Positions 16 to 2,316 of a stretch of 14,967 nucleotides of DNA are shown piece after piece. Positions within the stretch are counted from its first letter, which is position 1; each line of letters opens with the position of its first letter. A program made the position numbers and the translations under genes. The stretch is from a virus: UHGV virus genome UHGV-1809322; one strand, given 5' to 3'. The notes under the pieces are model-generated. The model worked only from the letters and a program-made list of their open reading frames with translations. It ran no database searches and had not been told where the DNA came from.

Positions 16-2316
16 ATCGACAATAAGCGACACAACAACGGCCAACACCCCATCATCATCGTCTGGGAAAACGTCCCTGGGGTGCTCTCCGATGCCCGTA
101 ATGCGTTCGGACAGTTCCTTGCCGGCCTGGCTGGTGAAGATACTGAATTCGAACCTGGCCCGCGACCTGAACGAGGCAAGTCCAATCAATACTGGCGCTG
201 GTGCAAAAAAACCGTGCGCCACGTTGCAACATGGCCGCAGCGTGGTTGTGTTTATGGACCACAGCGCAAACTGGCCTGGCGAATCCTTGATGCCCAATAC
301 TATGGACTGGCCCAACGACGCAAACGTGTGTTTGTTGTCGCAAGCGCTCGAACAGACCTCGATCCCGCCGCGATACTTTTTGAGTTCGACGGCCTGCGCC
401 GGGATTCTGCGCCGGGCAGAGAACAGGGGGCGCAAATTACCACCACTTCTGATGCAGGCGCTTACGGCAGTCATTGGGATGACGTAAGATTACCCCATCC
501 TACTTTAAATCAGAGCCACAACACTGGGGGAATTGGTTCCAGCAATCAAGAGGTATTCAGTCAGCGCGGATCTGGGTTAGTGAGTTCCATTTCAAAACCA
601 GATAGCATGAACGGCAGACCAGATGGAGCTTCCGCTGGTCATTGTAGTCCGATAATGTTTGGAGGTGGTCGAACTTCAGGCCCGGTCGATGTTGCCGCAT
701 GTCTGACAGCAAAGGGACAGCGTATTGATTTCGAAGTCGAGACATTTGCTGTTCACGGTACCCAGGATCCAGATGTAAAAGTGGATTTGGCGCACACTCT
801 CGGATGCAATCATGGGCAGGAAAATGCCTGTATTGCGTTTAGTTATAAAGATCATGGTCAGGATGTCAGCAATAACATTTCCCCTACCCTACGCGCTGGT
901 AATAGTGACACAGCAAACGCAAATAGCGGACAACCACCAGCAATAGCATATTGTCTACAACACTCCCAAATTGGACGTGCTGATAATGCTGGCCCGCAAG
1001 GTAAAGGCTGGCAGGAAAATGTTGGATTCACCCTTGATTCCAGAACATCAGCCGACGCAGTTGCCTGCATTCATTCTGTCTCTCTTCGTGGACGCGAAGG
1101 TGGCGGCACAGCAGAATTAGGTGGTGATGTGGCAACATGTTTGAGAGCAAGTGCGGGTGGCAGTGACAAACCCCATGTGCTCAACAACATGTCTGTACGA
1201 CGTCTTACGCCCCGCGAGTGCGAGCGATTGCAGGGCTTCCCTGATGATTACACCTTGGTCCCTTTTGGTCGTGTGGTTCGTCCTGAGAAAATGGACCGGG
1301 ATTTTGCAAAATACCTGATGCGGGGCGGTCATATGACGTTTGAGGACTGTTGCCGCGCAGCTGCAGACGGCCACCGGTATAAAGCCATCGGGAACAGCAT
1401 GGCGGTCCCTGTCATGCGTTGGATCGGGTCGCGCATTCAGCAGGCTGTTAATGCCCTGACAATGACTGATACGGTTTTTCATACCCGCACACCAAAAACA
1501 GACGAGGAGTTATCACGCCCGTTTTTGAAGTGGGCTGGTGGTAAATACAGCGTCTTTCGCACCATCGAGAGTTTTTTCCCTGCCAGCGGTCGCCTGATTG
1601 AACCATTTGCTGGTGCCGGTTCGGTGTTTCTCAACGCCGGCTTTGCATCGAATGTCATTGCTGATGCCAATGGTGACCTGATTAACACGTATCAGATGCT
1701 GAAACTTCATGCCCATGATCTTATTACGCTTACGCATCGCTTCTTCAGCGACTACAGCAATGAGGAGGCGTATAACAACGTGAAAGAGAAGTTCAACAGG
1801 ATGCATTACACCAGCATTGAGCGAGCAGCGGCCTTCATTTACCTCAACAAACACTGTTTCAATGGGCTGGTACGGTATAACAAAAAAGGCGAGTTCAACG
1901 TCTCGTGGGGTAAACCAACAAAAGCGCATTTCCCGCTTCGGGAGATGGAAAACTTTCTGTCTGTTGCTCAACGATGTGAATTCAAACACGCTCATTATCC
2001 GGAGACTATCCGGTTGGCCGGTCCCGGTGATGTTGTGTTTTGCGATCCGCCGTATGAACCACTCCCCGACAAGATAGGGTTCACAAAGTACGGTCCCGAC
2101 TCATTTCGTTTTGATGACCAGGAATTGCTGGTGAAATGCCTTCATGCTGCACATCAGCGTGGCGCCAGGGTAATCATTACGAACAGCGGAGCACCGAACA
2201 TTGAAGAGCTTTATCGTAGAACTGGGTTCACGCTACACGCGCTGAATAACCGACGTAATATTTCATGCAAAGGGGAGACGCGTGAGCGCGTGAATGATGT
2301 GATTGCTGTGCTTTGA
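16..2316 (+). CDS. DNA methyltransferase, 5'-truncated by window edge: C5-cytosine MTase core fused to a C-terminal Dam-like N6-adenine MTase domain
   Basis: Reading frame is open from the window start, so the track start at 82 (GTG) is not the real start. C5-MTase motifs: ENV (nt 67-75), QRRKRVFVV (nt 313-339), RRLTPRECERLQGFPDDY (nt ~1198-1251), GNSMAVPV (nt ~1390-1413). A ~285-aa variable region lies between motifs VIII and IX. Dam-like motifs follow: FLKWAGGKYS and EPFAGAGSVF (nt ~1522-1630) and DPPY (nt 2044-2055). Stop TGA at 2314-2316. Confidence 0.85.
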   Translation: MDNKRHNNGQHPIIIVWENVPGVLSDARNAFGQFLAGLAGEDTEFEPGPRPERGKSNQYWRWCKKTVRHVATWPQRGCVYGPQRKLAWRILDAQYYGLAQRRKRVFVVASARTDLDPAAILFEFDGLRRDSAPGREQGAQITTTSDAGAYGSHWDDVRLPHPTLNQSHNTGGIGSSNQEVFSQRGSGLVSSISKPDSMNGRPDGASAGHCSPIMFGGGRTSGPVDVAACLTAKGQRIDFEVETFAVHGTQDPDVKVDLAHTLGCNHGQENACIAFSYKDHGQDVSNNISPTLRAGNSDTANANSGQPPAIAYCLQHSQIGRADNAGPQGKGWQENVGFTLDSRTSADAVACIHSVSLRGREGGGTAELGGDVATCLRASAGGSDKPHVLNNMSVRRLTPRECERLQGFPDDYTLVPFGRVVRPEKMDRDFAKYLMRGGHMTFEDCCRAAADGHRYKAIGNSMAVPVMRWIGSRIQQAVNALTMTDTVFHTRTPKTDEELSRPFLKWAGGKYSVFRTIESFFPASGRLIEPFAGAGSVFLNAGFASNVIADANGDLINTYQMLKLHAHDLITLTHRFFSDYSNEEAYNNVKEKFNRMHYTSIERAAAFIYLNKHCFNGLVRYNKKGEFNVSWGKPTKAHFPLREMENFLSVAQRCEFKHAHYPETIRLAGPGDVVFCDPPYEPLPDKIGFTKYGPDSFRFDDQELLVKCLHAAHQRGARVIITNSGAPNIEELYRRTGFTLHALNNRRNISCKGETRERVNDVIAVL

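What the first reader, a model, noticed from the sequence alone, without database searches (positions are those of the whole stretch)
16..2316. Giant fused cytosine-C5 / adenine-N6 DNA methyltransferase with an expanded variable region (candidate multispecific anti-restriction enzyme)
A single ORF encodes a C5-MTase core and a complete Dam-like domain. The region between C5 motifs VIII and IX is ~285 aa, far longer than in typical monospecific enzymes. It contains three similar short elements (ACLTAKG, PTLRAGNS, TCLRASAGG) that may mark tandem target-recognition modules, as in multispecific phage C5-MTases. Together with the Dam domain this would let the element self-methylate against many host restriction systems. 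The N-terminus (motifs I-V) lies outside the window. The architecture recalls bifunctional Dmt-type enzymes of P1-like phages, but the ORF is at least 770 aa in-window and must be considerably longer in full, so it is not obviously the same protein.
Basis: partly seen in the sequence, partly recalled or inferred. Interest (0 to 1): 0.6.

Follow-up and report, generated by a model that had tools for sequence, protein, structure and literature searches.

The report
P1-type Dmt methyltransferase with shuffled recognition cassettes
This is the fused cytosine/adenine DNA methyltransferase (Dmt) of a P1-like phage-plasmid of E. coli, a known kind of gene, and its cytosine half carries a row of six or seven short cassettes that relatives swap in and out, which suggests, without proving, that it marks several different DNA sequences to evade host restriction enzymes.

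Summary
One frame is open from base 1 to the stop at 2314-2316. It encodes C5-methyltransferase motifs VI-X, a 288-aa variable region and a complete Dam domain. Bases 1-15 are Illumina adapter, so the contig end cuts the ORF. Near-identical contigs give the whole gene: 872 aa with intact motifs I and IV (GTPCQ).

Identity to P1 Dmt is 71% in the catalytic core and 52% in the C-terminal half. The gene follows rdgC/hrdC on a ~96 kb P1-like element. Family lengths run from 734 to 1148 aa, so 872 aa is ordinary.

The three noticed elements belong to seven [T/C]-L sites (1.1 expected; 0 of 10,000 shuffles). Six sit in 29-38 aa cassettes. Among 269 relatives, 16 cassette types form 160 architectures. 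Backbones 95-100% identical in DNA differ by whole cassettes. Cassettes are better conserved than the catalytic core.

This mirrors the tandem recognition domains of multispecific Bacillus phage methyltransferases, but I found no homology to them and could not model the region. Multispecificity is therefore plausible (about 50%), not shown.

The parts
16..2316 (+). dmt gene, 3' 2301 bases: residues 107-872 of an 872-aa bifunctional C5-cytosine / N6-adenine DNA methyltransferase, plus the stop codon
   Evidence: Open frame. Window 16-4057 is 100% identical to contig L003, where the gene is called at 872 aa. Carries PF00145 + PF02086 and TIGR00675 + TIGR00571.
16..417 (+). C-terminal part of the C5 catalytic core: motif VI ENV at 67-84, motif VIII QRRKRVF at 313-333
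   Evidence: Motif positions. ENV and QRR.R are invariant across 65 family members. The AF2 core is confident and matches the M.HhaI and M.HaeIII catalytic domains.
418..1197 (+). Variable region of 260 aa (full-length aa 241-500), built of TRD-like cassettes
   Evidence: Seven [T/C]-L sites against 1.1 expected. Mosaic presence and absence among relatives. DNA differences between near-identical alleles are confined to this stretch. AF2 pLDDT is 22-31.
469..582 (+). Cassette A: SHWDDVRLPHPTLNQSHNTGGIGSSNQEVFSQRGSGLV
   Evidence: Found in 63 of 120 relatives at median 76% identity. Replaced by cassette B in P0003.
592..657 (+). C-like segment: SKPDSMNGRPDGASAGHCSPIM, with no T-L core
   Evidence: Weakly similar (46%) to cassette C of the Salmonella-type proteins. 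Absent from P0002 and P0003.
658..753 (+). Cassette D: FGGGRTSGPVDVAACLTAKGQRIDFEVETFAV.
   Evidence: Found in 72 of 120 relatives at median 84% identity. Also present in Enterobacter phage CobraSix and Pseudomonas phage D14E.
754..840 (+). Cassette F: HGTQDPDVKVDLAHTLGCNHGQENACIAF
   Evidence: Found in 113 of 120 relatives at median 79% identity. Absent from P0002.
841..951 (+). Cassette G: SYKDHGQDVSNNISPTLRAGNSDTANANSGQPPAIAY.
   Evidence: Found in 110 of 120 relatives at median 69% identity.
952..1065 (+). Cassette H: CLQHSQIGRADNAGPQGKGWQENVGFTLDSRTSADAVA
   Evidence: Found in 42 of 120 relatives. Cleanly deleted in P0003, whose backbone is 95-100% identical.
1075..1179 (+). Cassette J: SVSLRGREGGGTAELGGDVATCLRASAGGSDKPHV.
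   Evidence: Aligns to M.HhaI 247-257 IAITLSAYGGG, which holds the canonical TRD Thr-Leu. Found in 9 of 120 close relatives but common in the wider family.
1198..1413 (+). C5 motif IX (1198-1251), a variable insert, and motif X AIGNS (1384-1413)
   Evidence: Positions. Invariant columns R501-G513 and K562-S567. The stretch between them occurs in two allele classes, about 85% and about 52% identical to the window.
1519..2313 (+). Dam (D12 class) N6-adenine methyltransferase domain: FLKWAGGK 1519-1551, AdoMet loop EPFAGAGSVF 1600-1629, DPPY 2044-2055
   Evidence: PF02086 E 4e-47. TIGR00571 scores 225 bits against a cut-off of 115. E. coli Dam 2g1p matches at E 7e-56 over 264 of 278 residues. Fold TM 0.93 normalised to Dam.

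Best explanation
The ORF is the dmt gene of a divergent P1-like phage-plasmid of E. coli: one 872-aa protein with two catalytic domains. The C-terminal Dam domain methylates adenine, most likely in GATC. This is inferred from P1 Dmt and E. coli Dam. In P1 that activity is needed for pac-site cleavage and packaging. The N-terminal C5 domain has a complete catalytic core. Between motifs VIII and IX it carries a row of six T-L cassettes (A, D, F, G, H, J) plus one spacer-like segment. I propose that the cassettes act as tandem target-recognition domains, each presenting a different DNA sequence to the shared catalytic core. The enzyme would then place 5mC at several unrelated sites on replicating phage DNA and pre-protect progeny against several Type II restriction systems. 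Recombination between elements reshuffles the cassettes. Some cassettes may be silent pseudo-domains. What is shown: gene identity, domain make-up, cassette mosaic, cassette conservation, recent exchange. What is inferred: GATC specificity, cassette = recognition domain, multispecificity, protective role, timing of expression.
For: Identity:
- P1 Dmt and about 870-aa 'Dam family' proteins of ~95 kb E. coli and E. albertii plasmids are the best annotated matches.
- Identity to P1 Dmt is 71% over aa 3-243 and 52% over aa 498-872, and the upstream RdgC is 47% identical to P1 HrdC.
- The surroundings are P1-like: tail sheath, tail tube, PmgG/PmgC-like genes and a c4/isrK-ant immunity region.
- The full gene is intact in three independent contigs, L003, L004 and L006.

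Activity:
- GTPCQ, ENV, QRR.R, motif IX and GNS are invariant or nearly so across 65 members.
- The Dam domain has DPPY and keeps the E. coli Dam positions K9, N120, L122 and R124.
- Both catalytic folds are modelled confidently.

Cassettes:
- Seven [T/C]-L sites against 1.1 expected.
- Cassette J aligns to the T-L recognition loop of M.HhaI.
- 16 cassette types give 53 architectures among 122 close relatives and 160 among 269 proteins. 8 types can sit directly before motif IX, and 28 adjacent pairs occur in both orders.
- Where present, cassettes are 69-84% identical (median), against 63% for the core and 51% for Dam.
- Three alleles are 95-100% identical in DNA outside the region and differ by sharp-edged cassette replacement or deletion.
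- Bacillus phage multispecific enzymes show the same picture: cassettes present or absent, each with S-P-T-[LI]-T-T, S-H-T-L-S-A or A-F-T-V-N-T. SPR has three such units and is cited as triple-specific.
- Reviews state that those enzymes array several recognition domains in one polypeptide and are expressed on induction.
Against: - There are no methylation data for any family member. P1's own annotation says only 'perhaps' for C5 activity.
- Cassette HMMs match neither Dcm nor the Bacillus recognition domains significantly; only the T-L core aligns.
- The variable region has no relative among solved structures.
- AF2 gives pLDDT 22-31 across aa 231-504, so nothing shows that the cassettes fold like recognition domains.
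- The smallest complete relative seen still has three T-L units (P0190). One functional recognition domain may therefore need more than one cassette.
- F and G nearly always travel together (128 adjacent occurrences), which hints at a composite unit.
- From general knowledge, heavy 5mC would expose the DNA to McrBC-type restriction, which is a cost.
- No P1 C1 operator is present, so P1-like lytic-phase control cannot be assumed.
Confidence: 0.55

Rival explanations
1. The C5 domain has one specificity, or very few. Most cassettes would then be pseudo-domains, structural spacers or parts of one large composite recognition domain. Cassette exchange would change a single specificity instead of adding specificities.
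For: F and G are almost always adjacent (128 times). The smallest complete enzymes still carry 2-3 cassettes. Only cassette J aligns to a solved recognition loop. Known recognition domains show no significant similarity to the cassettes. From my own knowledge, silent 'pseudo' domains are documented in the Bacillus enzymes (Lange et al. 1991, recalled, not read here).
Against: Cassettes are more conserved than the catalytic core, which is unexpected for spacers or dead remnants. 8 different types can occupy the position next to motif IX, and many pairs occur in either order, which is hard to fit to one fixed composite fold. Variable regions range from 135 to 394 aa.
Confidence: 0.3
2. The glycine/serine/asparagine-rich loop array gives relaxed or nearly sequence-independent cytosine methylation. 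This would be a C5 counterpart of non-specific phage adenine methyltransferases such as M.EcoGII.
For: The region is hydrophilic and Gly/Ser-rich (13.5% G, 10.4% S) and is not modelled by AF2. Non-specific phage methyltransferases exist and are silent in lysogens.
Against: Strong conservation of individual cassettes across 50-60% diverged backbones and their rapid exchange point to discrete, selectable functions, not a generic flexible surface. The conserved T-L core is the signature of sequence-reading loops in M.HhaI.
Confidence: 0.1
3. The C5 half is catalytically inactive. It would serve only as a DNA-binding or regulatory appendage of the Dam enzyme, and its variable region would drift or recombine neutrally.
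For: C5 activity has never been shown for P1 Dmt ('perhaps'). Only the Dam function has a known role in P1.
Against: All catalytic motifs, including the PCQ cysteine, ENV and QRR.R, are invariant or nearly so in 65 members. The relative P0014 keeps an intein inside PCQ; from general knowledge, inteins sit in sites that selection keeps functional. Cassettes are under purifying selection.
Confidence: 0.05

Closest known systems
Dmt of bacteriophage P1 (AAQ14041, 754 aa) and dmt of P7, SJ46, RCS47 and D6-like phage-plasmids
   Same: The domain order is the same, C5 then Dam. Identity is 71% in the catalytic core and 52% from motif IX through Dam. The position after rdgC/hrdC is the same, and so is the kind of element.
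   Different: The variable region is unalignable. P1 has cassettes E-K plus a degenerate G (171 aa); the window protein has A-D-F-G-H-J plus a C-like spacer segment (288 aa). An extra 115-aa ORF lies between rdgC and dmt, and the 97-aa ORF in the place of P1 uhr shows no similarity to it. No C1 operators are present. At DNA level the gene is only ~77% identical over about 380 bases to any deposited plasmid and is absent at that level from 5,426 complete E. coli genomes.
Multispecific C5 methyltransferases of Bacillus phages (M.SPRI, M.Phi3TI, M.Rho11sI, M.H2I, M.SPBetaI; also M.BssHII, M.BceSV)
   Same: Both are phage-borne. Both carry a tandem row of ~35-55 aa cassettes between motifs VIII and IX, each with a T-[LIV] core. 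Close relatives differ in which cassettes are present. The stated role is protection against many restriction systems with one enzyme.
   Different: There is no detectable homology beyond the generic C5 core, and cassette HMMs hit only the T-L core without significance. The hosts are Gram-negative. The Bacillus enzymes have no fused Dam domain. The window protein has more cassettes per protein (six, against three T-[LIV] units in SPR and four in rho11s). None of the specificities is known.
E. coli Dam (PDB 2g1p) and DpnM
   Same: The window's Dam domain aligns over the full length of E. coli Dam (E 7e-56, 264 of 278 residues). It has DPPY, FLKWAGGK and the NGL.RYN loop. Fold TM is 0.93.
   Different: About 34% identity. 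It is fused behind a C5 enzyme. It scores below the NCBIfam equivalog cut-off for host Dam (228 against 441 bits) while passing the Dam subfamily model.
M.HhaI / M.HaeIII (monospecific C5 methyltransferases with solved structures)
   Same: The catalytic core motifs match, and cassette J plus motif IX align to HhaI 247-293. The core fold matches.
   Different: M.HhaI has about 105 aa and one T-L loop between motifs VIII and IX. The window protein has 288 aa and seven [T/C]-L sites.
Recognition-domain shuffling in Type I HsdS subunits (an analogy, from general knowledge)
   Same: Specificity-determining modules are exchanged by recombination between otherwise conserved genes.
   Different: The protein family is different. 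HsdS has two domains per subunit that jointly define one bipartite site. No restriction partner is involved here.

Membership tests
P1 Dmt family (bifunctional C5 + Dam methyltransferase of P1-like phage-plasmids) | One polypeptide with an N-terminal C5-cytosine domain and a C-terminal Dam domain | tested here: met
   PF00145 + PF02086 in one ORF. TIGR00675 + TIGR00571 both score above their cut-offs on the full-length P0001.
P1 Dmt family (bifunctional C5 + Dam methyltransferase of P1-like phage-plasmids) | Sequence homology to P1 Dmt across both catalytic domains | tested here: met
   71% identity over aa 3-243 (E 4e-117) and 52% over aa 498-872 (E 2e-127). tblastn places P1, P7, SJ46 and RCS47 dmt among the best phage hits.
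P1 Dmt family (bifunctional C5 + Dam methyltransferase of P1-like phage-plasmids) | Location downstream of rdgC/hrdC on a ~90-100 kb P1-like element | tested here: met
   P1: uhr-hrdC-dmt. Here: RdgC, a 115-aa ORF, then Dmt, on 95.7 and 96.2 kb contigs. RdgC is 47% identical to HrdC. P1-like tail and head genes and a c4/ant immunity region lie in the window.
P1 Dmt family (bifunctional C5 + Dam methyltransferase of P1-like phage-plasmids) | GATC adenine methylation needed for pac cleavage | not testable with these tools
   This is a biochemical property. It is inferred only from conserved Dam residues and the statement in review PMC12707154.
C5-cytosine DNA methyltransferases (PF00145) | Ordered motifs I, IV (PCQ), VI (ENV), VIII (QxRxR), IX and X (GN) | tested here: met
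   Motifs VI, VIII, IX and X are in the window. Motifs I (YGSVCSGIEA) and IV (GGTPCQ) are in the 872-aa gene of L003, which is identical to the window from base 16. The motifs are invariant in the family.
Dam / D12-class N6-adenine methyltransferases (PF02086, TIGR00571) | Full-length domain with an AdoMet loop and the DPPY catalytic motif | tested here: met
   Profile positions 1-253 of 253 are matched. Score is 225 bits against a cut-off of 115. DPPY lies at 2044-2055. TM 0.93 to E. coli Dam.
Multispecific C5 methyltransferases (Bacillus phage SPR type) | Several T-[LIV]-containing recognition modules in tandem between motifs VIII and IX | tested here: met
   Seven [T/C]-L sites, six of them within 29-38 aa cassettes. 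0 of 10,000 shuffles reach this count. The SPR, rho11s, H2 and SPbeta enzymes show the same layout.
Multispecific C5 methyltransferases (Bacillus phage SPR type) | Modules gained, lost and rearranged between close relatives without loss of the core | tested here: met
   160 architectures among 269 proteins. Cassette indels occur in backbones 95-100% identical in DNA.
Multispecific C5 methyltransferases (Bacillus phage SPR type) | Sequence homology to the Bacillus enzymes or to their recognition domains | tested here: not met
   Cassette HMMs against SPR, rho11s, H2, SPbeta and Dcm give only short T-L core matches, best E 0.06-0.3. The resemblance is therefore in how it would work, not in family membership.
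Multispecific C5 methyltransferases (Bacillus phage SPR type) | Each module confers an independent target specificity | not testable with these tools
   This needs methylome mapping of the wild-type enzyme and of cassette-deletion or natural-allele variants.

The most novel reading that the evidence does not exclude
Dmt and a much wider set of C5 methyltransferases of phages and plasmids of Proteobacteria would form a large combinatorial system. At least 16 interchangeable recognition cassettes of ~30-40 aa would be shuffled by recombination, giving single enzymes with up to six or more independent 5mC specificities. The variable region alone finds 1,267 clusters at 50% identity. The set includes Enterobacter, Pectobacterium and Pseudomonas phages. 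This would be the Gram-negative counterpart of the Bacillus phage multispecific enzymes. It would be far more diverse, and in P1-like elements it is fused to Dam. In the literature I could search, multispecific C5 enzymes are reported only from Bacillus. REBASE could not be consulted.
Probability: 0.45. Interest if true: 0.7.

Novelty: new member of a known kind. Interest (0 to 1): 0.45.

Why it matters
If the cassettes are independent recognition domains, three things follow. First, P1-like phage-plasmids, which carry antibiotic-resistance genes among Enterobacterales, would have a reprogrammable multi-target shield against Type II restriction, and that shield would help set their host range. 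Second, the natural cassette dictionary, together with near-isogenic alleles that differ by single cassettes, would give a direct way to link short protein modules to DNA target sequences. That would be useful for annotating 5mC methyltransferases and for engineering them. Third, the C5 half of P1 Dmt, whose P1 GenBank annotation still says only 'perhaps' for cytosine methylation, would gain a function. If they are not independent domains, this is simply another Dmt homologue.

Tried and rejected
- Structure. AF2 of the full-length P0001 with a 65-sequence family alignment modelled the core and Dam domains well, but aa 231-504 came out at pLDDT 22-31. That gives no information on cassette folds.
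- Solved structures. phmmer of the variable region alone against PDB sequences found only a chance match to a BMC-H protein.
- Internal duplication. hhalign of all cassette pairs reached at best 43% probability (H-I).
- Specificity assignment. Cassette HMMs against E. coli Dcm (CCWGG) and the Bacillus multispecific enzymes were not significant, so no target sequence can be proposed.
- P1-type regulation. No match to the C1 operator consensus (up to 3 mismatches) in the window or in L003. No tRNA genes follow dmt as they do in P1. No terminator-like site lies in 2200-3200.
- DNA-level relatives. Megablast found only a ~380-base stretch at about 77% identity in E. albertii plasmids, one 150-base Vibrio phage hit, and one E. 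coli plasmid among 5,426 genomes.
- Base composition. G+C is 47-51% in the variable region against 56% in the core, too small a difference to argue for foreign origin.
- Literature. Eight full-text searches found no paper on the C5 specificity of Dmt or on multispecific C5 enzymes outside Bacillus. The P1 genome paper and the 1988 EMBO paper on domain order are not held.
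Full report
**1. What is in the sequence**

Frame 1 of the + strand is open from base 1 to the stop at 2314-2316, which gives 771 codons. Pfam finds a C5-cytosine methylase domain and a complete D12-class (Dam) domain at window residues 511-754.

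Motif positions in window coordinates are as follows:
- ENV 67-84
- QRRKRVF 313-333
- Motif IX, RRLTPRECERLQGFPDDY, 1198-1251
- Motif X, AIGNS, 1384-1413
- FLKWAGGK 1519-1551
- DPPY 2044-2055

The stretch between motifs VIII and IX is 288 aa. The three quoted elements are there.

Two corrections apply. Bases 1-15 read ACGCTCTTCCGATCT, the end of an Illumina adapter, where three related contigs read GATTTAGCAAATGCC. The ORF is therefore cut by a contig end and not by biology. The three elements are also part of a larger set: [T/C]-L occurs seven times in the 260-aa variable stretch against 1.1 expected, and 0 of 10,000 shuffles reach seven.

**2. Recovering the whole gene**

I looked up the neighbouring anti-repressor-like protein by exact sequence. 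That returned four contigs from E. coli assemblies and metagenomes, two of them 95.7 and 96.2 kb long. The window is 100% identical to contig L003 from base 16 to base 4057.

In L003 the gene is 872 aa. It has motif I (YGSVCSGIEA) and the catalytic GGTPCQ in the 101 residues missing from the window. The gene is intact in three independent contigs, L003, L004 and L006.

**3. What it is**

tblastn puts dmt of phages SJ46, P1, P7 and RCS47, and about 870-aa 'Dam family' proteins of ~95 kb non-mobilizable E. coli and E. albertii plasmids, at the top. P1's record annotates Dmt (754 aa) as a bifunctional methyltransferase that methylates GATC 'and perhaps' cytosine C5.

- Direct comparison gives 71% identity over aa 3-243 and 52% over aa 498-872. 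The variable region is unalignable.
- The gene upstream is RdgC, 47% identical to P1 HrdC.
- The rest of the window holds P1-type tail sheath, tail tube, PmgG- and PmgC-like genes and a c4/isrK RNA plus anti-repressor immunity module.

This is the dmt gene of a divergent P1-like phage-plasmid. The family is very large: 7,959 proteins at E<1e-20, all carrying both domains, with lengths of 734-1148 aa. Its variable regions span 135-394 aa. The protein is neither 'giant' nor outside the Dmt family.

**4. The two catalytic domains**

The Dam domain aligns over 264 of the 278 residues of E. coli Dam (E 7e-56). It keeps the residues at E. coli Dam positions K9, N120, L122 and R124. It passes the Dam subfamily model. 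In the AF2 model it superposes on E. coli Dam with TM 0.93. GATC specificity is an inference from these similarities and from P1. Review PMC12707154 states that P1 needs GATC methylation at pac and that dmt is essential in Dam-minus hosts.

In the C5 half, GTPCQ, ENV, QRR.R, motif IX and GNS are invariant or nearly so across 65 family members. The modelled core matches M.HhaI and M.HaeIII. An inactive C5 domain is therefore unlikely.

**5. The variable region is a mosaic of cassettes**

A 15-sequence alignment showed blocks of ~30-40 aa present in some members and absent in others. From it I defined 16 seed cassettes, A to P, and mapped them.

The window protein reads A, a C-like spacer, D, F, G, H, J. 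Its near relatives P0002 and P0003 read A-G-H-J and B-D-F-G-J. P1 reads E-K plus a degenerate G.

| Measure | Result |
|---|---|
| Architectures among 122 close relatives | 53 |
| 50%-identity clusters found with the variable region alone (of 1.84 billion representatives) | 1,267 at E ≤ 0.001; 361 at E ≤ 1e-10 |
| Architectures among 269 proteins | 160 |
| Cassettes per protein | 1-9, median 5 |
| Cassette types found directly before motif IX | 8 |
| Adjacent cassette pairs seen in both orders | 28 |

Many of the clusters found with the variable region alone are shorter proteins of about 350-650 aa, some with a complete set of C5 motifs.

Cassettes are not detectably homologous to one another; the best hhalign probability is 43%. 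They share only a small-x-[T/C]-L-x-[A/S] core followed by a short hydrophobic stretch.

Where present, cassettes are 69-84% identical (median), against 63% for the catalytic core and 51% for Dam. They are under purifying selection. One caveat is that presence was defined by BLAST detection, which biases these identities upward.

At DNA level, the three alleles of this lineage are 95-100% identical outside gene nt ~721-1380. Inside it they differ by sharp-edged replacements or deletions. These correspond to window ~418-657 and ~927-1047 against P0003, and ~418-957 against P0002. That is recent cassette exchange.

The same cassettes occur in phages of Enterobacter (B, D, F, G), Pseudomonas (D, F, G) and Pectobacterium (B, E).

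**6. How it most likely works**

Cassette J aligns to M.HhaI residues 247-257 (IAITLSAYGGG), which hold the conserved Thr-Leu of the recognition domain.

I fetched the classical multispecific enzymes of Bacillus phages SPR, rho11s, H2 and SPbeta. Their alignment shows the same anatomy. Cassettes of ~35-55 aa are present or absent between motifs VIII and IX, each with S-P-T-[LI]-T-T, S-H-T-L-S-A or A-F-T-V-N-T. SPR has three such units. Its triple specificity is cited in PMC8936443, which also summarises that these enzymes have several recognition domains in tandem. Review PMC12707154 says the Bacillus temperate phages protect against many restriction systems in this way and that such temperate-phage modifying enzymes are expressed upon induction.

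My best explanation is that the Dmt cassettes are tandem recognition domains sharing one catalytic core. The enzyme would then lay down 5mC at several targets plus 6mA at GATC on replicating DNA. I put this at about 0.55 overall. The identity part is near certain and the multispecific part is about even odds.

**7. What weakens it**

- No methylation data exist for any member.
- Cassette HMMs do not significantly match Dcm or the Bacillus domains.
- The region has no relative among solved structures.
- AF2 leaves aa 231-504 at pLDDT 22-31.
- F and G almost always travel together, and the smallest complete relative seen still has three T-L units. A working recognition domain may therefore span more than one cassette, and some cassettes may be silent.
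- No P1 C1 operator is present, so lytic-phase control is assumed and not shown.

The rivals are one or few specificities with pseudo-domains (0.3), relaxed specificity (0.1), and an inactive C5 half (0.05).

**8. Comparison with known families, and novelty**

Membership in the Dmt family, the C5 family and the Dam family was tested and met. Membership in the Bacillus multispecific family was tested and not met at the level of homology. The anatomical features are met, so the claim is 'works like' and not 'is a member of'.

Eight literature searches found multispecific C5 enzymes reported only from Bacillus, and nothing on the C5 specificity of Dmt. REBASE and the P1 genome paper were not available.

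I file the gene as a new member of a known kind. The cassette system across the wider family is the novel reading, at probability about 0.45.

**9. Verdict**

It is right about the fusion, the expanded variable region and the plausibility of tandem recognition modules. It is wrong that this is not Dmt and that it is unusually large.

Interest is moderate. The gene is ordinary for P1-like elements. The cassette mosaic is a concrete and cheaply testable lead, helped by near-isogenic natural alleles that differ by single cassettes.

Noticed in passing
window 1-15: ACGCTCTTCCGATCT is the 3' end of the Illumina TruSeq adapter. Related contigs read GATTTAGCAAATGCC here. The contig begins with untrimmed adapter, which creates the false N-terminal residues TLFRS.
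   Followed up: yes
window 3084-4605, minus strand: A P1 immI-type immunity module. Rfam finds isrK at 4530-4605 and C4 antisense RNA at 4418-4505. They are followed by a 162-aa ORF (3884-4372) with no family match and an anti-repressor-like ORF (3084-3887; phrog_1726 and phrog_129).
   Followed up: partly
window 4058-4298: All 27 non-adapter mismatches to contig L003 fall in this 240-base patch. All are at third codon positions of the minus-strand ORF 3884-4372. The window is identical to L003 over 16-4057 and 4299-13887, where the stored L003 locus ends. It looks like a recombined allele patch under purifying selection.
   Followed up: partly
window 7127-7411, plus strand: A 94-aa PAAR-motif protein (phrog_281, E 1e-26) sits just upstream of the P1-like tail gene block: sheath 10138-11910 and tube 13330-13830. 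A PAAR gene lies in the same relative place in plasmid pKY1497_2.
   Followed up: no
relative P0014 (1148 aa, 260 member sequences, E. coli), residues 78-418: This Dmt homologue carries an intein (PF14528 LAGLIDADG_3 and PF13403 Hint_2) inside the catalytic motif IV: GGTP-[CFTAGHM...VVHN]-CQAFS.
   Followed up: partly
L016 6249-7920 (lineage of P0002): In this sister phage-plasmid, the genes downstream of dmt are an AcrVA2-like gene (PF26125) and a Cas1-like gene (PF01867). The anti-repressor seen in the window is not there.
   Followed up: no
window 1252-1383 (full-length aa 519-561): The stretch between C5 motifs IX and X comes in at least two allele classes, about 85% or about 52% identical to the window. 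Some members lack a ~25-aa insert (RPEKMDRDFAKYLMRGG...). AF2 models it poorly.
   Followed up: no
L003 14187-14534, minus strand (upstream of the window): A 115-aa ORF with no family match sits between rdgC and dmt and overlaps both by 4 bases. P1 has no gene there, and the 97-aa ORF in the place of P1 uhr shows no similarity to Uhr.
   Followed up: partly
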